Positions 1 through 13,882 of a DNA stretch of 64,000 nt are shown here, piece after piece. Each line of letters begins with the position of its first letter. The stretch's first letter is position 1. Source of the stretch: an uncultured Bacteroidota bacterium (GTDB taxonomy: Bacteria; Bacteroidota; Bacteroidia; Chitinophagales; UBA2359). The DNA lies in NCBI GenBank assembly GCA_937907475.1, contig CALCIK010000228.1, positions 5,050 to 69,049 on the forward strand. Direction: 5' to 3'. The position numbers and the translations under genes are program-made. Under the pieces are notes generated by a model. The model was not told where the DNA came from, did not search any database, and was given only the letters and a program-made list of their open reading frames with translations.

Positions 1-2
1 TC

Positions 3-2255
3 AGCTTTGCGCAGTATTTTGGCATAGGCAGCCCTGTTTTGGTGGTGCAAAACAAAATAGATGCCACCTCCCATTTACACGACCCCTACCCGTATCCAAG
101 AGTTCAAAATGAGTTAAAAACTAAATTTCCCGCCATAGTTGATTTTATAGGGGTAAGCACCAAAACAGGCAAGGGTTTTATAGTACTGGCAGATGCCATA
201 GAGCGTTTGTTTACCGAAAACCCCACCCTCCGCAACGATTTATTAAACAAGCCCCTGCCCAAAACATGGTTGCAAGTGCGCCACCGCATACGCCAAGAGC
301 AAGAAAACGAAAAAGGCTTAGACCTTATACCTTTCAGCCTTTTTGAACAATGGTGCCATGATGCTGGCATAGCCGCTTCTGCCCCCACCCTTGCCCATTT
401 TTTACACCAAACCGGCGTTGTGTATTACCAACCTCCCTATTTTTCTGGGCAAATTATCCTAAATCAGGCATGGGCAATAGAAGCCGTTTACCAAGTCCTT
501 GACCGCGAAGGCGATTATTTTGAGATATTGGAATATCGCCAAGGAACATTAGATTATACTACCCTATGCAGAATTTGGGCAAAAAATACCAATGATGAGC
601 GTAACTTGTTTATAGATTTTATGTTGAGCAGCGAGTTGTGTTTTGAAACCACCCCAAACAAAAAATACCATACGCCCTTACAAGAGCGCACTTTTACCGT
701 ACCACAAGCTTTGCCCCCCACAGAGCCGCCCTCTATTGCCACAGAGCAAACCCGCCTGCAAGCAAATGAAACTATTACACGGTCTTATACCTTTTTACCC
801 TCCATCTTTATACAGCGTTTTATGATTAGGGCGCATCGATTTTCGGAACATCGGTATATGTGGCAGCACGGCATCGGTTTATATAATACTGATGAAGCGT
901 ATGCCGTAGTAAGGGCAAATTATACGCACGGTCAGCACACCATTACCATTCATTACAATGCAGCCGCCGTAGCCAGCAAATTGCTACAAGCTATAGAAGA
1001 AGAAGTGCAAATTTTAGAAGCCGAAGATAAAGACCAATCTAAACCATTTAAAGAAAAATCGGGTTTTAAAGCATTGAACTATTATCAAAAACCAAAAACT
1101 GAATCAGTTATGTCCCAAAACAAACTTAACCTTTTCATTTCGTACTCGCCCGAAGATGAAACCTTTAAAAAAGCATTTGATAAGCATTTAACAAGCCTTA
1201 GACGAAGTGAGCAAATTGCTACTTGGGATAGCAGTAACGTGTTGGCAGGCAGTAATTTAAGCTCTGCCATAGAAGGCCTTCAAAATGCCCATGTCATTCT
1301 AATTTTAGTAAGTACCAACTACATTTCAGATGATAAATTGTGGAAACAGCATTTGCTAAATGCTATATATCGGCATGAACGAGGTTTTGCCCGCATAATC
1401 CCCATAAAAATTACCGATTTTGACGATAAAAATCTCCCCTTCAGCAAAATACAGGGACTGCCCCGAAATGGAAAAGCCATAGGCTCACCTAACAACAATG
1501 CAGCATGGTTAGAAGTAGCCAAAGAAATTCGCGCAGTGGTAGAGGATATGTTGGCAAAAGGCATTGGCGTTCAAAATAATATACCACCACAGTACAAGCA
1601 AGAAGGACAGGGTAATAACAAACCAAAGGATAACCCATATCCACAGAGCAAAGAGAAGAAAAAAGTACTCTTTATTTGCTCCAGCCCAAGTAATGTGGAT
1701 GTAACCCTAAATTTTGGTACCGAGTTTCGAAATATCGCAGATGCGCTCAATAGTAGCTCTCATAGGCAAAAATTCAACATCTCTATTAAAACCGGTGTAC
1801 AATTTGACGAACTTACACGGTTGTTATTACAAGAAAAATCCGATGTACTGCATATTTCCATGCACAGTTCACTTGAAAAAGGTGGTTTATTATTTGAGTA
1901 CAAAGATAGCAGCTTACAACCGCTTAACCCTGAATCCCTAACAGGTATGATACGAATTGCAAACTACCAATTAGATTTGGTAGTTTTGAGCGCTTGTAAC
2001 TCAAAAGCTCACGCAGTAGCTGTTGCCAGCCTTACTACTGTTGCAAATGTAATTGGCATGAATGATTTAATTTCGGACGAAGCGGCAGCTTATTACGCTG
2101 AGAAATTTTATGAAATTTATTTTGACCATCAAAATGTCTTGCAAGCTCACCAAAATGCTCAAGAATCGTTAAAAGCTAACAGCAGAATTGGAGATCATAC
2201 TATCTTTGCGGAAGTTCCTTATATCCAAAAATTAAACAACCACATACTACCATGA
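3..2255 (+). CDS. Roco-family protein, 5'-truncated by window edge: (Roc GTPase end)-COR-TIR-linker-CHAT caspase-like protease
   Basis: Frame is open from base 3 (SFAQYFGIGSPVLVVQNKID) and is collinear with the paralogue at 5482. Roc G4 NKID and G5 VSTKTG; COR motifs LPKTWLQVR, FLHQTGVVYY, ILNQAWAIEAVYQVLD; TIR LFISYSPED...IIPIKI...PFSKIQGLP; CHAT KVLFICSSP, DVLHISMHS (His codon 1863) and LVVLSACNS (Cys codon 1995). Confidence 0.92.
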   Translation, partial: SFAQYFGIGSPVLVVQNKIDATSHLHDPYPYPRVQNELKTKFPAIVDFIGVSTKTGKGFIVLADAIERLFTENPTLRNDLLNKPLPKTWLQVRHRIRQEQENEKGLDLIPFSLFEQWCHDAGIAASAPTLAHFLHQTGVVYYQPPYFSGQIILNQAWAIEAVYQVLDREGDYFEILEYRQGTLDYTTLCRIWAKNTNDERNLFIDFMLSSELCFETTPNKKYHTPLQERTFTVPQALPPTEPPSIATEQTRLQANETITRSYTFLPSIFIQRFMIRAHRFSEHRYMWQHGIGLYNTDEAYAVVRANYTHGQHTITIHYNAAAVASKLLQAIEEEVQILEAEDKDQSKPFKEKSGFKALNYYQKPKTESVMSQNKLNLFISYSPEDETFKKAFDKHLTSLRRSEQIATWDSSNVLAGSNLSSAIEGLQNAHVILILVSTNYISDDKLWKQHLLNAIYRHERGFARIIPIKITDFDDKNLPFSKIQGLPRNGKAIGSPNNNAAWLEVAKEIRAVVEDMLAKGIGVQNNIPPQYKQEGQGNNKPKDNPYPQSKEKKKVLFICSSPSNVDVTLNFGTEFRNIADALNSSSHRQKFNISIKTGVQFDELTRLLLQEKSDVLHISMHSSLEKGGLLFEYKDSSLQPLNPESLTGMIRIANYQLDLVVLSACNSKAHAVAVASLTTVANVIGMNDLISDEAAAYYAEKFYEIYFDHQNVLQAHQNAQESLKANSRIGDHTIFAEVPYIQKLNNHILP

Positions 2256-3061
2256 GTGAATTTCAAACAATTTTACAGAGTTACCACTATAATAGTGTAG
2301 TGCTACCCAGAACAGGCATAAAGCCACTACAAATGTTGAAACAAGACCAAAAAGGCACTGTTACTTCATTAGACATGAACATAGATGATTTTTTTAAGCC
2401 CGATATTGTGGCGAAGCCTAGCACTAAAACCGAAAAAGTCATCAGCATACAAGATGAACGCAAAGTAGATGTTAATGGCAAAGTAGATATTAGTTTTTTG
2501 GAACAACTACTTGCTAAATTTGGAATAGGCAGTATAAATGCCCATTTTAAATCAGCACCAAATTTTACTATTAGGGTTGGTATCAACAATATTGAAGTAG
2601 ATACAATTGGGCTTGGAACATTAGATAGATTTCTTAGTACTTCCATTTTACAAGAAAAAGAATTCGGGACATGGGGGAAAGAATTAAAAGATAGTAATTT
2701 GTTCGTAATAACCAGTGTTTTGAAATCAAATGAAATAAACATCACCGTTGAATCAAACAGCAGTTTAGACACCGGTGCTGCAGTTAAATTAGAAAACATC
2801 ATTGATTTCAATGCCGGCTATGACAAAACAAATCTAAAAGATTATAGTCTGAAACACGAAAGTGAGAGCGAGCAAATGGTATTCGGAATTAGAGGCGTTA
2901 GGATAAACTATGACAAACCGGGCTTGTTTGACCGCAGTGAAAAAGTCCGATTTACCATAGGAAAAGAGCTCAATAATGTTGTCATGAAAGGCGTAGAAGA
3001 TATAGAACCAATTTGGTTAGACGCTACTAATTGGGATTTAACACCACCTGTTCGCGACTAA
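2252..3061 (+). CDS. bGSDM: Bacterial gasdermin (pore-forming effector)
   Basis: 269 aa. YNSVVLPRTGIKPL, NLFVITSVLKSNEI and MVFGIRGVRI match recalled bGSDM motifs (Runella YSLVAYPKTSIRPL, NFFVATSLLRAKKM, IVFGVKLVRL). Short C-terminal tail after VVMK/G. ATGA overlap with the CHAT protease gene. Confidence 0.88.
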   Translation: MSEFQTILQSYHYNSVVLPRTGIKPLQMLKQDQKGTVTSLDMNIDDFFKPDIVAKPSTKTEKVISIQDERKVDVNGKVDISFLEQLLAKFGIGSINAHFKSAPNFTIRVGINNIEVDTIGLGTLDRFLSTSILQEKEFGTWGKELKDSNLFVITSVLKSNEINITVESNSSLDTGAAVKLENIIDFNAGYDKTNLKDYSLKHESESEQMVFGIRGVRINYDKPGLFDRSEKVRFTIGKELNNVVMKGVEDIEPIWLDATNWDLTPPVRD

Positions 3062-3223: not shown

Positions 3224-3424
3224 AGGCGGGCACAAAACGCACAAAAGTATACTGCGCCAAGCCTTAAACCAAGCCCCCAAGATGATATAGAAATTGTACA
3301 GTTGCAAGCCCGCCTCAGCAGTGTAGAACAGCAAGAGTGCCTGGGTACTATCTCCTATGACAATGCCCGATTAGAGAAGAACCAAATTACCGCCGCCCTG
3401 CTTAGTTGGTTAGGCAAACAATAA
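3224..3424 (+). pseudogene. EAD11-like (effector-associated domain) relic, start-less
   Basis: Open frame with no ATG: ...DDIEIVQLQARLSSVEQQECLGTISYDNARLEKNQITAALLSWLGKQ*. It matches the recalled EAD11 pattern I..L.AR...L......G.IS...A....N.I..ALL. Confidence 0.65.
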
Positions 3425-3509: not shown

Positions 3510-6500
3510 ATGAGCCAACTTGCCTTAGACCTTATAACCCAAGAAGCCACACAAAAAACCGGCTACCTTGAACTGGGTAAATGCGGACTAACCCCCGACA
3601 ACCCTCAGCTGCAACAAGTATGGAAGGAATTAGGTAAACTCAGCCACTTGCAAACACTGATTTTGAGTGATGCGTGGTGGGAGTGGGATGGTGAAAAGAA
3701 ATATTGGAAAGAAAAGCAAAGTCAAAATTCAGGAAACGATAACTTTTTGGCAGAACACCCCGATACGCTGCAAGAATTGTATAATTTAACAACCTACATT
3801 TGCGGGGGATTTCGGGATAATAGATGGCAAATAAGCAAAATCCCCCAATTTGCCAGCCCCAATAAATTGCTATACTTATATTTAAGTGTCAATCAAATTG
3901 CCCGAATAGAAAACCTAGAAAACCTGCCCGATTTGCAGGTATTAGACCTTAGCGGTAACCAATTCACTAAGATAGCAAACTTAGATAACCTGCCCAAGTT
4001 GGAGCGGTTAAACCTTAACAACAACTACCTCACCAAGATAGAAAACTTAGATAACCTGCCTAAGTTGCAAGAGTTAATGTTTGGTTACAACCAACTCTCT
4101 AAGATAGAAAACTTAGAGAGGCTGCCCAATTTGCAGGGGTTATTCCTAAACAACAATCAACTCAGCATTATAGAAAACTTAGATAGGCTACCTAAATTGA
4201 AAAAGTTAGCCCTTGTAAATAATAAAATTGCTAAAATAGGGACTACGTTTGACTTGCCTTGTTTAGAAAAATTAGACCTAAGCAAACATCAACTTACCAA
4301 AATAGAAAATTTAGATAAACTGCCCAATTTACATGAGTTAGACCTAAGCCATAATTACCTCACCAAGATAGAAAACTTGGATAGTTTGTATAATTTACAA
4401 GTGTTGAACCTTGAAAGCAACCAACTCACCAAGATTGAAAACTTAGATAACCTGCCCAATTTGCATGAACTAAAATTTGGGAGTAATCAACTTGCCAAGA
4501 TTGAGAACTTAGATAACTTACCTAAGTTAAAAAAACTGTATTTTAGTTTAAGGTTTTCTCCAAATTATGGGAACGCACTCGCTAAGATTGAAAACTTAGA
4601 TAATCTATCAAATTTGGAGGAGTTATATCTTGGAGGCAACCGCATCACCAAGATAGAAAACTTAGATAGACTATCTAATTTACACAGATTAGATATTTGG
4701 GCTAACTCACTCACTAAAATAGAAAATTTAGACAACCTACCAAATTTACAATGGCTAACTCTTGGTAATAATGGAATTACCAAAATAGAAAATTTAGACA
4801 ACTTATTACTACTAAAAACTTTAGACCTCAGCGTCAATCTAATCACCAAGATAGAAAACTTAGATAAGCTGCTCAATTTGCAGGGGTTATTTCTTAACTT
4901 CAACCAACTCACCAAGATAGAAAATTTAGATAGCTATCTCAATTTGCAGGGGTTAGACCTTAGCAATAACAAAATCACCACCCCCATTACCCTTACCTTC
5001 TTGCGGCAGTTCCCTAAATTGTATTCGTTAAATTTGAGCAGTAACCCCATATCCAATATCCAATCCGAAATAATTTCGGATAGTGATTGTTTACCCACCC
5101 TACGCACCTACCTACAAGACTTAGAAGAAGGCGGCGAACCCAACAACGAAGTAAAAGTACTGTTTATAGGCAATGGTAATGTGGGCAAAACACAAATAGC
5201 CGGGCGCTTGGCGTGGCAAGATAAGTTTGTTTTTAATATACAACACCACTCTACTCATGCCATTTGTTTGCTTAGGCGGCATTTACCCACCACCCTGCTA
5301 CCACAAGGTTTGCAACTCAACCTTTGGGATTTTGGGGGGCAAGCTATGTACCATGCTACTCACCGTTTGTTTATGCGCACCCGCGCCTTGTTTTTATTGG
5401 TTTGGGACAAAGAAAACGAAGCCGCTCCGTACCATATTTGGGAAAACCGGCAGTACAACAATGAAAAACTGCTCTACTGGCTCAGTTATGCGCAGTATTT
5501 TGGCAAGGGTAGCCCTGTTTTGGTGTTACAAAACAAAAAAGATGCCACCGCCCATTTACCCGACCCCTACCCGCCGCTGCCGGTACAGCGGGAGCTAAAA
5601 AACAAATTTCCCGCCATAGTTGATTTTATATGGGTAAGTGCTAAAACCGGCAATGGTTTTAGAGTGCTGGTAGATACCATAGAGCGTTTGTTTACCCAAA
5701 ACCCCACCCTCCGCAACGATTTAGTAAACAAACCCCTGCCCAAAACTTGGTTGCAAGTGCGCCACCGCATACGCCAAGAGCAAGAAAAAGAAGAAGGCTT
5801 GCCCATTATACCGTTCAGCCTTTTTGAACAATGGTGCCAAGATGCCGGCATAGCCACCTCTGCTCCTACCCTTGTCTATTTTTTACACCAAACCGGGGTT
5901 TTGTATTACCAACCTCCCTATTTTTCGGGGCAAATTATCCTAAATCAGGCATGGGCAATAGAAGCTGTTTACCAAGTCCTTGACCGCGAAGGCGATTATT
6001 TTGAGCTATTGGAACATTACCAAGGAAAATTAGATTATACCACGCTATGCAAAATTTGGGCAAAAAATACCAATGATGAGCGCAACTTGTTTATAGATTT
6101 TATGTTGAGCAGCGAGCTGTGTTTTGAAACCACCTCATTTGAAAAATACAATGCCAGCTTACAAGAGCGCACTTTTACCATACCGCAAGCATTGCCCACC
6201 ACAGAGCCGCCCACTATTGCCACAGAGCAAACCCGTCTGCAAGCAACTGAAATTGCTACACGATCTTATGACTTTTTACCCTCCGTCTTTATACAGCGTT
6301 TTATTATTAGAGCGCATCGGTTTTCGGAGCATCAGGATATGTGGCAGCATGGCATTGGTTTGTCTTATACTAAAGAAGATTACGCCGTAGTAAGGGCAAA
6401 TTATACGCTCGGTCAGCACACCATTACCATTCATTACAACCCAGCCGCCGATGCAAGTGGATTACTAAAAGCCATTCAAGAAGAACTGCAAATTTTAGAA

Positions 6501-7061
6501 GCCGAAGATAAAGACCAACCTAATCTATTTAAAGAAAATTCGGGTTTTAAAGCATTGAATTATTACCAAAAACAGGAGATTAAGCCACTCATGACCCAAA
6601 ACAAACTTAACCTTTTCATTTCGTACTCGCCTGAAGATGAAGCCTTTAAAAAAGCATTAGATAAGCATTTAACAAGCCTTAAACGAAGTGAGCAAATTGC
6701 TACATGGGATAGCAGTAACGTTTTAGCAGGCAGCAATTTAAGCTCTGCCATAGAAAGCCTTCAAAATGCCCATGTCATTCTAATTTTAGTAAGTACCAAC
6801 TACATTTCAGATGATAAATTGTGGAAACAGCATTTGCTAAATGCTATATATCGGCATGAACGAGGTTTTGCCCGCATAATCCCCATAAAAATTACCGATT
6901 TTGACGATAAAAATCTCCCCTTCAGCAAAATACAGGGATTGCCCCGAAATGGAACATCCATAGGCTCACCCAACAACGATGAAGCATGGGTAGAAGTAGT
7001 CAAAGAAATTCGCGCAGTGGTAGAGGATATGTTGGGAATAGGCATTTGTATTTTTCGGTAA
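3510..7061 (+). CDS. Roco-family protein LRR-Roc-COR-TIR (no protease domain)
   Basis: About 18 SDS22-like 22-aa LRRs. Intact Roc motifs GNGNVGKT (G1), LWDFGGQ (G3), QNKKD (G4), VSAKTG (G5). COR domain, then a C-terminal TIR ending 10 codons after the TIR helix. No signal peptide. Confidence 0.93.
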   Translation: MSQLALDLITQEATQKTGYLELGKCGLTPDNPQLQQVWKELGKLSHLQTLILSDAWWEWDGEKKYWKEKQSQNSGNDNFLAEHPDTLQELYNLTTYICGGFRDNRWQISKIPQFASPNKLLYLYLSVNQIARIENLENLPDLQVLDLSGNQFTKIANLDNLPKLERLNLNNNYLTKIENLDNLPKLQELMFGYNQLSKIENLERLPNLQGLFLNNNQLSIIENLDRLPKLKKLALVNNKIAKIGTTFDLPCLEKLDLSKHQLTKIENLDKLPNLHELDLSHNYLTKIENLDSLYNLQVLNLESNQLTKIENLDNLPNLHELKFGSNQLAKIENLDNLPKLKKLYFSLRFSPNYGNALAKIENLDNLSNLEELYLGGNRITKIENLDRLSNLHRLDIWANSLTKIENLDNLPNLQWLTLGNNGITKIENLDNLLLLKTLDLSVNLITKIENLDKLLNLQGLFLNFNQLTKIENLDSYLNLQGLDLSNNKITTPITLTFLRQFPKLYSLNLSSNPISNIQSEIISDSDCLPTLRTYLQDLEEGGEPNNEVKVLFIGNGNVGKTQIAGRLAWQDKFVFNIQHHSTHAICLLRRHLPTTLLPQGLQLNLWDFGGQAMYHATHRLFMRTRALFLLVWDKENEAAPYHIWENRQYNNEKLLYWLSYAQYFGKGSPVLVLQNKKDATAHLPDPYPPLPVQRELKNKFPAIVDFIWVSAKTGNGFRVLVDTIERLFTQNPTLRNDLVNKPLPKTWLQVRHRIRQEQEKEEGLPIIPFSLFEQWCQDAGIATSAPTLVYFLHQTGVLYYQPPYFSGQIILNQAWAIEAVYQVLDREGDYFELLEHYQGKLDYTTLCKIWAKNTNDERNLFIDFMLSSELCFETTSFEKYNASLQERTFTIPQALPTTEPPTIATEQTRLQATEIATRSYDFLPSVFIQRFIIRAHRFSEHQDMWQHGIGLSYTKEDYAVVRANYTLGQHTITIHYNPAADASGLLKAIQEELQILEAEDKDQPNLFKENSGFKALNYYQKQEIKPLMTQNKLNLFISYSPEDEAFKKALDKHLTSLKRSEQIATWDSSNVLAGSNLSSAIESLQNAHVILILVSTNYISDDKLWKQHLLNAIYRHERGFARIIPIKITDFDDKNLPFSKIQGLPRNGTSIGSPNNDEAWVEVVKEIRAVVEDMLGIGICIFR
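3861..5060 (+). repeat. Intragenic 66-bp LRR tandem array
   Basis: Repeating (T)KIENLDNLPxLxxLxLxxNQL unit, DNA 'accaagatagaaaacttagat'; one repeat has a 7-aa insertion (SLRFSPNYGN). Confidence 0.9.
5482..7046 (+). repeat. Direct repeat of bases 1-1565 (paralogous Roc-COR-TIR segment)
   Basis: Constant offset of 5481 bp with no indels (1 to 5482; ggcatt at 1560 to 7041); high but patchy identity. Confidence 0.93.
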
Positions 7062-13137: not shown

Positions 13138-13263
13138 TCATCAAAAAGCAGAAATTAAACTGCCATACCTACTCCTGCCCATTCAATATAGAGAGGTAAA
13201 GCGATAAAATATTTGTTGATTTTAGCGTTTAAATAGCAGAATAAGCATATTAGAGTGCTATTT

Positions 13264-13532
13264 TAAAACCTTTTTTAGGGCTTAAAAAACAATTGTTAAG
13301 GGATAAAAAACCTTTTTTAGAGCCTGCAAAACAATTGTTAGGGGATAAAAAACCTTTTTTAGAGCTTACAAAACAATTGTTAAGGGATAAAAAACCTTTT
13401 TTAAAGCCTACAAAACAATTGTTAAGGAATAAAAAACCTTTTTTAGAGCCTACAAAACAATTGTTAGGGAATAAAAAACCTTTTTTAAAGCCTACAAAAC
13501 AATTGCTAGGAGATAAAAAACCTTTTTTAGAG
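13264..13532. repeat. 42-bp tandem repeat, about 6.4 copies, each with two dyads
   Basis: AACAATTGTT palindrome recurs at 13288, 13330, 13372, 13414, 13456 and 13498 (last has one mismatch); each unit also has AAAAAACCTTTTTT. Confidence 0.92.
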
Positions 13533-13882
13533 GCGAAAAATCTATTTTTAAAGCTACCCAAAGCATTTTTGGGGCTAAAATTTTTATCAAAACAACCCAT
13601 TACGCCATCTATCCTCCCTCACAATATTTAGCGTGCCCTTTTTTATCTTCCCCTTTAAAACAACACTAAGGCATTGCGTTGATGCTATAAATTAAAGGCC
13701 TGTTGACTAAAAACTGCTTGTTTTGCTGATTTCGACAGCCGCGCAAATTTACTTACAATTTTAGCATTCACCAACTTATCCAGTACTATTTAAACAGTAA
13801 CCCCACAGGATTTATTCCCTTTTTGTTGTTAAATCAAGATATGCTGTTTCATATTTACAACTGCTTTCTCAATTACACATCG

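What the first reader, a model, noticed from the sequence alone, without database searches (positions are those of the whole stretch)
5482..7046. Tandem Roco paralogues: patchy COR divergence, near-identical TIR core, and a break exactly after the TIR
Seen: bases 1-1565 and 5482-7046 align at a fixed 5481-bp offset. COR differences cluster in short patches (TPNKKYHTP vs TSFEKYNAS; LYNTDEAY vs LSYTKEDY). About 195 bp of TIR core (1277-1473 vs 6758-6954) differ at only one synonymous base by eye. Homology stops at GGCATT, after which copy 2 stops within 5 codons and copy 1 continues into linker plus CHAT. Inference: gene conversion or selection keeps the TIR interfaces compatible while other parts diverge. 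Copy 2 is either an extra sensor that widens the trigger range or a dominant-negative decoy, like caspase-less regulators.
Basis: partly seen in the sequence, partly recalled or inferred. Interest (0 to 1): 0.68.

Follow-up and report, generated by a model that had tools for sequence, protein, structure and literature searches.

The report
Tandem Roco paralogues in gasdermin island
Two neighbouring sensor genes of a bacterial gasdermin cell-suicide system have been partly homogenised towards their shared TIR end, but the striking "perfect" TIR stretch is absent from a second assembly of the same locus, so it may be an assembly artefact.

Summary
The repeat is real. Gene 1 is LRR-Roc-COR-TIR-CHAT, 1356 aa, and starts 1816 nt before the window. 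It is followed by a bacterial gasdermin and then by gene 2, LRR-Roc-COR-TIR, 1183 aa. The two genes are homologous from about 29 bp upstream of the ATG to GGCATT just after the TIR. Gene 2 then stops after 4 codons, with no CHAT or gasdermin remnant.

Synonymous divergence falls about 10-fold from 5' to 3': about 1 in the LRR, 0.40 in Roc, 0.21-0.32 in COR and 0.08-0.11 in TIR. The best breakpoint sits at the COR|TIR junction. TIR is among the most divergent domains against outgroups (with COR-B) but the most similar between the paralogues. This favours gene conversion or recombination over protein-level selection alone.

The main caveat concerns the perfect tract. An independent assembly of this locus differs from the window at only 7 bases in 22,110. 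All 7 lie inside gene 1's "perfect" tract (window 1335-1394). In that assembly the 182-bp run breaks into runs of 59 and 63 bp, which is not significant.

Both TIRs have His in place of the catalytic Glu. Gene 2 therefore has no obvious effector of its own and most likely acts through gene 1's TIR-CHAT. This is untested. The patchiness in COR is ordinary loop variation.

The parts
1..2255 (+). 3' 750 codons of gene 1. The full gene is 1356 aa, LRR-Roc-COR-TIR-CHAT, and starts 1816 nt upstream of the window at C228:3234. Within the window: COR-A 258-707, COR-B 783-1019, TIR about 1128-1559, CHAT 1719-2189.
1276..1457 (+). Stretch of 182 bp in gene 1's TIR that is identical to gene 2 (6757-6938) in this assembly. 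It covers beta-C, helix alpha-C and beta-D.
   Evidence: (0 of 20,000 permutations reach 182)
1335..1394 (+). Block where the two assemblies disagree. A second assembly (L030) has 7 other bases here: K1051E, Q1055K, I1061M, R1066Q, F1068I and one synonymous change. These are the only differences in 22,110 bp.
1560..1565 (+). GGCATT, the last homologous bases in gene 1. A linker and CHAT follow.
2252..3061 (+). Bacterial gasdermin, 269 aa. Its start overlaps the stop of gene 1 (ATGA).
   Evidence: PADLOC bGSDM, E = 3.5e-33; Pfam Bact_GSDM
3278..3412 (+). Relic of an EAD11 adaptor domain with no start codon, lying in the spacer between the gasdermin and gene 2.
   Evidence: tblastn: 62% identity over 45 aa to the EAD11 of the C45 paralogue, E = 7e-14
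3510..7061 (+). Gene 2, 1183 aa, LRR-Roc-COR-TIR with no protease domain. LRR about 3834-5070, Roc 5154-5543, COR-A 5739-6191, COR-B 6264-6500, TIR 6609-7028.
6757..6938 (+). Gene 2's counterpart of the perfect tract. It is the same in both assemblies.
7041..7061 (+). End of homology (GGCATT, 7041-7046), then TGT ATT TTT CGG TAA. Nothing downstream as far as ubiA (7458) resembles the linker, CHAT or gasdermin.

Best explanation
A 9.8-kb defence island sits between sucC and ubiA. It carries a gasdermin system of the Runella type: a Roco sensor-protease (LRR-Roc-COR-TIR-CHAT) and its gasdermin. It also carries a second, protease-less Roco paralogue (LRR-Roc-COR-TIR).

Evolution (about 0.7). The two Roco genes are old duplicates; their 5' parts are near synonymous saturation. 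Their 3' parts have been made more alike by gene conversion or recombination, with a step at the COR|TIR module junction. The perfect 182-bp stretch seen in the window has two possible origins. It may be the newest such conversion, present in only part of the population. More likely (about 0.65) it is a collapse of the two copies by the short-read assembler.

Function (inferred, about 0.35-0.4). Both TIRs have lost the catalytic glutamate, so they act as assembly pieces and not as NADases. Gene 2 is intact and under purifying selection, and its LRR surface is more diverse. It probably senses a different trigger. It would pass activation to gene 1's CHAT protease by co-assembling through the shared COR and TIR domains. 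CHAT would then cleave the gasdermin.
For: Anatomy and context
- Domains.
- Full-length homology from -29 bp to the end of TIR.
- sucC and ubiA are adjacent in three congeners, so the island is an insertion.

Mosaic divergence
- dS by domain: N-terminus 0.93, LRR 0.98, Roc 0.40, COR-A 0.21, COR-B 0.32, TIR 0.08.
- With the conservative L030 version of gene 1, TIR dS is 0.106. It is still lower than Roc+COR (Fisher P = 9e-4). Heterogeneity across domains has chi-square P = 0.0015.
- The max-chi-square breakpoint falls at aa 977, the COR|TIR junction.
- Genes 1 and 2 are sisters relative to the third paralogue in every segment.
- TIR is among the fastest domains against outgroups but the most similar between the paralogues.

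Assembly dependence
- All 7 differences between C228 and L030 over 22,110 bp lie at window 1335-1394.
- The 59- and 63-bp perfect flanks of that block are the only runs of 55 bp or more in the alignment.

Gene 2 looks functional
- The frame is open over 1183 codons.
- dN/dS is 0.21-0.49 in all domains.
- The G1, G3 and G4 motifs are present.

Glu-less TIR
- The family's conserved acidic column aligns with the Glu of AbTIR and Cat1. It is His in genes 1 and 2 and in P0043.
- The GEEWD loop motif is also lost.
- The TIR fold is confirmed.
- The same Glu-less TIR travels with CHAT and a gasdermin behind an unrelated Roc-COR in P0043: TIR 63%, CHAT 59%, GSDM 44%, Roc 31% identity.
- In the third paralogue of this genome an EAD11 adaptor occupies the TIR's position.

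LRR
- Entropy at the variable positions is 2.41 bits in gene 2 against 1.49 in gene 1.
Against: - With the L030 version of gene 1 the run-length test (P = 0.12) and the all-site max-chi-square test (P = 0.14) are not significant. The case for conversion then rests on synonymous and third-position counts from a single gene pair.
- No related strain carries the locus, so concerted evolution could not be shown by comparing paralogues with orthologues.
- No reads could be examined.
- Nothing shows that genes 1 and 2 interact, or that gene 2 is expressed.
- In a related locus (L026) a Roco-TIR protein is linked to a caspase through matched helical adaptor tails. The link is not through similar TIRs, which are only 25% identical.
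- In L030 the two TIRs differ at 5 residues of helix alpha-C and the following loop, which weakens the idea of identical interfaces.
Confidence: 0.5

Rival explanations
1. Gene 2 is a brake, not a sensor. By pairing with gene 1 through COR and TIR it yields complexes with too few CHAT domains. That would raise the activation threshold, as protease-less decoys do for caspases.
For: The architecture is the same as gene 1 minus the protease. The COR and TIR domains are highly similar. Gene 2 has no effector of its own, because its TIR lacks the catalytic Glu.
Against: A pure decoy has no need for an intact, diversified 17-18-repeat LRR. Yet gene 2's LRR is more varied than gene 1's, and gene 2 keeps its GTPase motifs under purifying selection. 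There are no direct data either way.
Confidence: 0.2
2. Gene 2 is an independent stand-alone Roco-TIR defence gene, like the many LRR-Roc-COR-TIR proteins of Saprospiraceae and Chitinophagales. It merely sits next to the gasdermin system, and its similarity to gene 1 is just common descent.
For: Stand-alone LRR-Roc-COR-TIR proteins are common among relatives (P0008, P0011-P0015, P0045, P0046). They end a few residues after the last TIR helix, as gene 2 does.
Against: Those stand-alone proteins keep the acidic catalytic residue and mostly the GEEWD motif. Gene 2 instead has the Glu-less TIR type that is otherwise found fused to CHAT, and it keeps the 'GIG' start of the TIR-CHAT linker. Simple common descent does not explain a 10-fold dS gradient.
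Confidence: 0.15
3. The low TIR divergence reflects stronger purifying selection on TIR alone, with no gene conversion.
For: dN is lowest in TIR: 0.036-0.052 against 0.07-0.12 elsewhere.
Against: Synonymous and third-position differences are also lowest in TIR: 5-7% against 12-23%. Against outgroups TIR is not the most conserved domain but among the least. dN/dS in TIR (0.45-0.49) is higher than in Roc (0.21).
Confidence: 0.08
4. Gene 2 is a truncated duplicate on its way to decay and has no function.
For: It lacks CHAT and a gasdermin of its own. The locus holds relics: an EAD11 fragment and a transposase fragment upstream of gene 1. Gene 2 lies at the edge of the island.
Against: The frame is open for 1183 codons even though dS is 0.4-1 over its 5' half, and dN/dS is 0.2-0.5 throughout.
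Confidence: 0.05
5. The duplication itself is an assembly artefact.
For: None beyond the general risk with MAG contigs.
Against: The copies differ at about 11% of sites and in LRR repeat number. Two independent assemblies give the same order and sequence.
Confidence: 0.02

Closest known systems
Runella zeae gasdermin with its Roc-COR-CHAT protease (Johnson et al., bioRxiv 10.1101/2021.06.07.447441; Science 2022)
   Same: A bacterial gasdermin is encoded directly after a caspase-like CHAT protease fused to Roc-COR. The paper notes LRR fusions among gasdermin-associated proteases, and that the protease cleaves a C-terminal inhibitory peptide.
   Different: Here a TIR without the catalytic Glu sits between COR and CHAT. 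A second, protease-less LRR-Roc-COR-TIR paralogue lies in the same island. The paper's text does not mention TIR (0 occurrences). I did not fetch or compare the Runella protease sequence.
Effector-associated domains (EADs) as homotypic coupling adaptors (Kaur, Burroughs, Iyer, Aravind, eLife 2020, PMC7159879), and the CARD-like domains of the Lysobacter gasdermin system (Wein et al., PMC10312443)
   Same: The same small non-enzymatic domain on a sensor and on an effector protein of one locus is proposed to bring them together. Here the third paralogue has EAD11 where genes 1 and 2 have TIR. A related locus shows a chain of matched adaptor tails.
   Different: The shared domain here is a degenerate TIR, not a helical EAD or CARD. 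The partner that lacks an effector is a full paralogue of the sensor-protease, not a separate class of protein.
Paired or helper immune receptors of eukaryotes: plant RPS4/RRS1 (TIR heterodimer, PDB 4c6t) and NAIP-NLRC4 (from my own knowledge)
   Same: Adjacent paralogous receptors in which one member carries the executing part. They associate through a shared signalling domain. 4c6t appears among the fold matches.
   Different: The central switch is different (Roc-COR GTPase, not a STAND ATPase). No interaction has been shown here. The resemblance is one of logic only.
Type IV Thoeris: a TIR-made signal activates a caspase-like protease (Rousset et al., bioRxiv 10.1101/2024.10.24.620036)
   Same: A TIR and a caspase-family protease work together in one defence system.
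   Different: That system needs a catalytic TIR that makes N7-cADPR. Here the catalytic Glu is His in both TIRs, and the TIR is fused to the protease.

Membership tests
Bacterial gasdermin + caspase-like protease system (Runella type) | A bacterial gasdermin gene | tested here: met
   PADLOC bGSDM, E = 3.5e-33; Pfam Bact_GSDM on the same gene in L030
Bacterial gasdermin + caspase-like protease system (Runella type) | An adjacent caspase-like protease with a His/Cys dyad | tested here: met
   CHAT, E = 1.3e-10. The His (SMHSS) and Cys (LSACNS) columns are invariant in the alignment with P0043 and P0007. The stop and start codons overlap.
Bacterial gasdermin + caspase-like protease system (Runella type) | The protease cleaves the gasdermin's C-terminal inhibitory peptide and releases a pore-forming fragment | not testable with these tools
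   Needs biochemistry
Roco proteins | A Roc GTPase directly followed by COR-A and COR-B, with intact G motifs | tested here: met
   Roc, COR-A and COR-B are above the Pfam cut-offs in both genes. GNGNVGKT, D[LF]GGQ and NK[IK]D are read.
Catalytic TIR NADases (AbTir, ThsB, SARM1 type) | TIR fold | tested here: met
   TIR_2, E = 1e-10; model pLDDT 82.6; Foldseek matches to AbTir, SPARTA, SARM1, MAL and MyD88 TIRs
Catalytic TIR NADases (AbTir, ThsB, SARM1 type) | A catalytic glutamate at the start of helix alpha-C | tested here: not met
   The family column W-x-x-E aligns with the Glu of AbTIR (NYEL) and Cat1 (WDEL). Genes 1 and 2 read W-K-Q-H-L, and the L030 version of gene 1 reads W-K-K-H-L.
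Type IV Thoeris (TIR signal activates a caspase-like protease) | An enzymatically competent TIR that produces a nucleotide signal | tested here: not met
   The catalytic Glu is absent in both TIRs. No separate TIR gene is present in the island.
Gene conversion / concerted evolution between paralogues | Synonymous divergence differs significantly between segments of the same gene pair | tested here: met
   Chi-square P = 3e-4 (C228) and 1.5e-3 (L030). TIR against Roc+COR, Fisher P = 9e-5 and 9e-4.
Gene conversion / concerted evolution between paralogues | An identical tract longer than chance allows | tested here: inconclusive
   182 bp, 0 of 20,000 permutations, in this assembly. 63 bp, P = 0.12, in the second assembly.
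Gene conversion / concerted evolution between paralogues | Paralogues within a genome are closer to each other than to their orthologues in other strains | not testable with these tools
   No other genome or metagenome contig carries the locus
Homotypic adaptor pair (EAD logic) | The same non-enzymatic domain is present on an effector-less protein and on the effector protein of one locus | tested here: met
   A Glu-less TIR is present on gene 2 and on the TIR-CHAT of gene 1, at 88-92% identity
Homotypic adaptor pair (EAD logic) | The two domains bind each other | not testable with these tools
   Needs pull-down or co-expression experiments

The most novel reading that the evidence does not exclude
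Genes 1 and 2 form a bacterial sensor/executor receptor pair. A protease-less Roco sensor with its own, more diversified LRR co-assembles through COR and a non-catalytic TIR with the Roco-TIR-CHAT executor and so triggers gasdermin cleavage. Recurrent gene conversion keeps the shared assembly end matched while the sensing ends diverge. This would be a prokaryotic counterpart of paired NLRs or NAIP-NLRC4, built on a GTPase switch.
Probability: 0.3. Interest if true: 0.72.

Novelty: new variant of a known kind. Interest (0 to 1): 0.42.

Why it matters
If the pair works together, it would be a bacterial example of two things. The first is division of labour between paralogous immune receptors: one senses, the other executes. 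The second is a TIR domain used purely as an assembly piece for a caspase-like protease upstream of gasdermin, a layout so far associated with animal and plant immunity.

It is also a practical warning. The most eye-catching feature of the finding, a perfect tract between paralogues, sits exactly where two assemblies of the same population disagree. Such tracts in MAG contigs need read-level confirmation before they are read as biology.

Tried and rejected
- Related strains: 4 congeners and 56 further relatives lack the locus, and the nearest homologues are 41% identical. Congeners have sucC next to ubiA.
- Genome-contig scan with the TIR-CHAT module: nothing with the single sequence. With an alignment, only distant TIR matches.
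- Two metagenome scans for the tract, with IUPAC letters that allow every A/B combination, found nothing.
- The L030 version of the tract is not present on any other contig of the MAG.
- Remnants of CHAT, linker or gasdermin after gene 2's break: none by blastn or tblastn.
- The 411 bp after gene 2 are unique in the genome. Promoter and terminator scans were uninformative.
- A simple tandem duplication of the segment from -29 bp to the TIR end is rejected. It would put the truncated copy before the full-length gene, not after the gasdermin.
- 'Matched TIR pair' in the related locus L026 is rejected. Its TIR-caspase and Roco TIRs are only 25% identical, and the matching parts are helical tails.
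- L042 turned out to be a different system (MoxR-vWA/STAND-TIR) and not a Roco pair.
- L024: there is no gasdermin after the LRR-Roc-COR-TIR-CHAT homologue P0007.
Full report
**What is there.**
The window is C228:5050-69049 of a 228-contig genome. Relatives found later are Saprospiraceae and Chitinophagales MAGs.

Copy 1 of the finding is the 3' part of a gene that starts 1816 nt before the window. The full gene 1 is 1356 aa: N-terminal cap, about 15 LRR units of 22 aa, Roc, COR-A, COR-B, TIR, a linker, and CHAT. Its stop overlaps the start of a 269-aa bacterial gasdermin (PADLOC bGSDM, E = 3.5e-33).

After a 448-bp spacer comes gene 2 (window 3510-7061, 1183 aa). It is LRR (about 17-18 units)-Roc-COR-A/B-TIR and nothing more.

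**Checking the observation.**
- Bases 1-1565 and 5482-7046 align without gaps at offset 5481, at about 89% identity.
- The quoted peptide patches are present.
- The longest perfect run is 182 bp (1276-1457 = 6757-6938), bounded by mismatches at 1275 and 1458.
- Homology ends at GGCATT. Gene 2 then reads TGT ATT TTT CGG TAA, while gene 1 continues into the linker and CHAT.
- Nothing after the break resembles the linker, CHAT or the gasdermin, by blastn or tblastn.
The genes are homologous over their whole length, starting about 29 bp upstream of each ATG.

**A second assembly contradicts the perfect tract.**
The exact product of gene 2 is also encoded on a 67,089-bp contig of JGI metagenome 3300014350 (L030). 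That contig has the same gene order. Over 22,110 aligned bases it differs from C228 at only 7 positions, and all 7 lie in gene 1 at window 1335-1394, inside the perfect tract.

At these positions the window's gene 1 equals gene 2, whereas L030's gene 1 does not. The L030 changes are K1051E, Q1055K (two bases), I1061M, R1066Q, F1068I and one synonymous change. In a confident TIR model (pLDDT 82.6) these residues lie on helix alpha-C and the loop after it.

With the L030 version the longest perfect runs are 63 and 59 bp, which random placement of the mismatches reaches 12% of the time. The window's 182 bp was reached in 0 of 20,000 permutations.

The 59- and 63-bp flanks are the only perfect runs of 55 bp or more in the Roc-to-TIR alignment. 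From my knowledge of de Bruijn assemblers, this is the one place where a k = 55 graph would form an equal-length bubble between the two copies, which an assembler may pop. It is equally the place where homologous recombination has the longest anchors. One assembly must contain a version the other lacks.
- If both assemblies come from the same reads, the window is a collapse.
- If they come from different samples of one otherwise identical population, the window may record a very recent conversion of 60-182 bp.

I put collapse at about 0.65. I could not decide the question. No other contig of the MAG holds the L030 version. Two metagenome scans found no further copies.

**Divergence is still not uniform.**
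Nei-Gojobori dS between the genes by domain:

| Segment | dS |
|---|---|
| N-terminus | 0.93 |
| LRR (repeat alignment uncertain) | 0.98 |
| Roc | 0.40 |
| COR-A | 0.21 |
| COR-B | 0.32 |
| TIR | 0.08 (0.106 with L030) |

- Heterogeneity of synonymous differences among Roc, COR-A, COR-B and TIR has P = 3e-4 (C228) and 1.5e-3 (L030).
- TIR against Roc+COR gives Fisher P = 9e-5 and 9e-4.
- Third-position differences are 23%, 12%, 21% and 5-7% for the four domains.
- The single best breakpoint is at aa 977, the COR|TIR junction, in both versions. All-site P is 0.010 for C228 and 0.14 for L030.
- Short low-dS patches also occur in codons 1-40 and 464-503.
- Genes 1 and 2 are each other's closest relatives in every segment compared with the third paralogue on contig C45.
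- Against the nearest outgroups, TIR is among the most divergent domains (37-52% identity, similar to COR-B at 43-48% and well below Roc at 63-69%). Between genes 1 and 2 it is the most similar (88-92% against 84% for Roc).

Purifying selection on the protein cannot lower synonymous divergence or invert that order. Partial homogenisation of the 3' end by gene conversion or recombination is therefore the best reading. The evidence is moderate: it comes from one gene pair with no strains for comparison.

The COR 'patches' are not special. Clustering is weak (maximum 6 differences in 9 residues, P = 0.18; variance/mean P = 0.027). The differences fall on positions that also vary or carry indels in outgroups (P = 4e-6).

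**History of the locus.**
- In three congeners sucC and ubiA are neighbours, 64-588 bp apart. Here they are 9.8 kb apart, so the whole set is an inserted island.
- Upstream of gene 1 lies a fragment 86% identical to a transposase-like sequence on contig C78.
- The spacer before gene 2 holds a start-less relic of an EAD11 domain, with 62% identity to the EAD11 of the C45 paralogue and E = 7e-14.
- The C45 paralogue is LRR-Roc-COR-EAD11-CHAT plus a gasdermin. An adaptor domain thus occupies the slot that TIR has in gene 1.
- In P0043 (L031) a TIR-CHAT-gasdermin set is 63%, 59% and 44% identical to this one, but it follows a Roc-COR that is only 31% identical. The module has therefore been exchanged at the same COR|TIR junction where the divergence step lies.
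- A simple tandem duplication of the homologous segment would place the truncated copy first, so it does not explain the layout.
- Gene 2 ends where stand-alone Roco-TIR proteins naturally end. It keeps 'GIG', the start of the TIR-CHAT linker, and it has the CHAT-associated TIR type. Its 3' end therefore derives from a TIR-CHAT gene, either by truncation or by conversion.

**What the TIR is.**
The family has a conserved acidic residue in W-x-x-E-[LIM]. A profile of the family aligns this column with the Glu of AbTIR and Cat1. From my own knowledge, that Glu is the catalytic residue. Genes 1 and 2 (both versions) and P0043 have His there, and they have also lost the GEEWD loop motif. The fold is a TIR. 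A Glu-less TIR that is kept together with CHAT and a gasdermin across different sensors is most simply an assembly domain for the protease.

**How it most likely works.**
Shown:
- Gene 2 is intact.
- It is under purifying selection (dN/dS 0.2-0.5).
- It keeps its GTPase motifs.
- Its LRR surface is more diverse than gene 1's: 2.41 against 1.49 bits at the variable positions. Gene 1 even has two identical adjacent repeats.
- It has no evident effector.

Inferred: gene 2 senses a different trigger and hands activation to gene 1's CHAT by co-assembly through COR and TIR. COR is the Roco dimerisation device, as cited in PMC7159879. CHAT then cleaves the gasdermin, as shown for the Runella Roc-COR-CHAT system.

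A threshold-raising decoy is the main rival. An independent stand-alone gene and a decaying duplicate are less likely. None of these has been tested.

**Comparison and novelty.**
The system is a member of the known gasdermin + Roc-COR-CHAT kind (Runella). Three things are new as a variant:
- the Glu-less TIR between COR and CHAT;
- the protease-less full paralogue that shares it;
- the 3'-biased homogenisation.

The logic resembles EAD and CARD adaptor coupling and eukaryotic receptor pairs. Type IV Thoeris does not fit, because it needs a catalytic TIR.

**Score.**
Interest is 0.42. The evolutionary pattern is real but moderate. Its most striking element is probably an artefact. The functional ideas are untested.

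Noticed in passing
window 3278-3412 (+): A relic of an EAD11 adaptor domain with no start codon lies in the spacer between the gasdermin and gene 2. It is 62% identical to the EAD11 of the C45 paralogue (E = 7e-14). The island therefore once held an EAD11-bearing gene.
   Followed up: partly
L011:2728-3040 (C228, upstream of the window): A fragment of about 315 bp upstream of gene 1 is 86% identical to contig C78:98950-99265. An ORF there reads like a DDE/rve-type transposase (...TFDNGTEFAGH...). This is probably an insertion-sequence relic at the left edge of the island.
   Followed up: partly
L012:1796-6354 (contig C45 of the same genome): A third paralogous system: LRR-Roc-COR-EAD11-CHAT (1240 aa) followed by a 267-aa gasdermin (PADLOC bGSDM, E = 7.6e-46). 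EAD11 occupies the position that TIR has in gene 1.
   Followed up: partly
L026:3064-9472: In a related metagenome locus three proteins are linked by matching tails. The Roc-COR-TIR protein P0006 ends in a tail that matches the N-terminus of the next gene, a 261-aa EAD11 protein. The C-terminus of that protein matches the tail of a TIR-Peptidase_C14 protein upstream. This is a chain of matched adaptors from sensor to caspase. The LRR part of the Roco gene is split off by a stop codon.
   Followed up: partly
L011:3885-4020 (gene 1 aa 219-262, upstream of the window) compared with window 3834-5070: Gene 1's LRR is of low diversity and has two identical adjacent 22-aa units (LDLDFNRLTKIDNLDNLPNLLR-type). 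Gene 2's variable positions are much more diverse: 2.41 against 1.49 bits.
   Followed up: partly
window 3510-4196: The IMG gene call for gene 2 (954 aa) starts 229 codons downstream of the ATG used here. The full 1183-aa frame is open and homologous to gene 1 from its first codon, so the short call is probably an annotation artefact.
   Followed up: partly
window 13223-13600: About 12 or more tandem copies of a 21-bp unit (alternate copies 83-93% alike) lie inside overlapping ORFs on both strands (13250-13600 on the minus strand, 13293-13631 on the plus strand).
   Followed up: no
L042:8918-18874: A Saprospiraceae MAG (UBA2329) carries a MoxR-like AAA / vWA locus with two different TIR proteins: an AAA_22-TIR of 635 aa and an LRR-STAND-TIR of 1478 aa. 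Their TIRs are 47-50% identical to the ones studied here.
   Followed up: partly
L024:10001-15342: The closest full-architecture homologue, P0007 (LRR-Roc-COR-TIR-CHAT, 1543 aa, with the catalytic Glu kept), has no gasdermin or other ORF in the 710 bp after it.
   Followed up: partly
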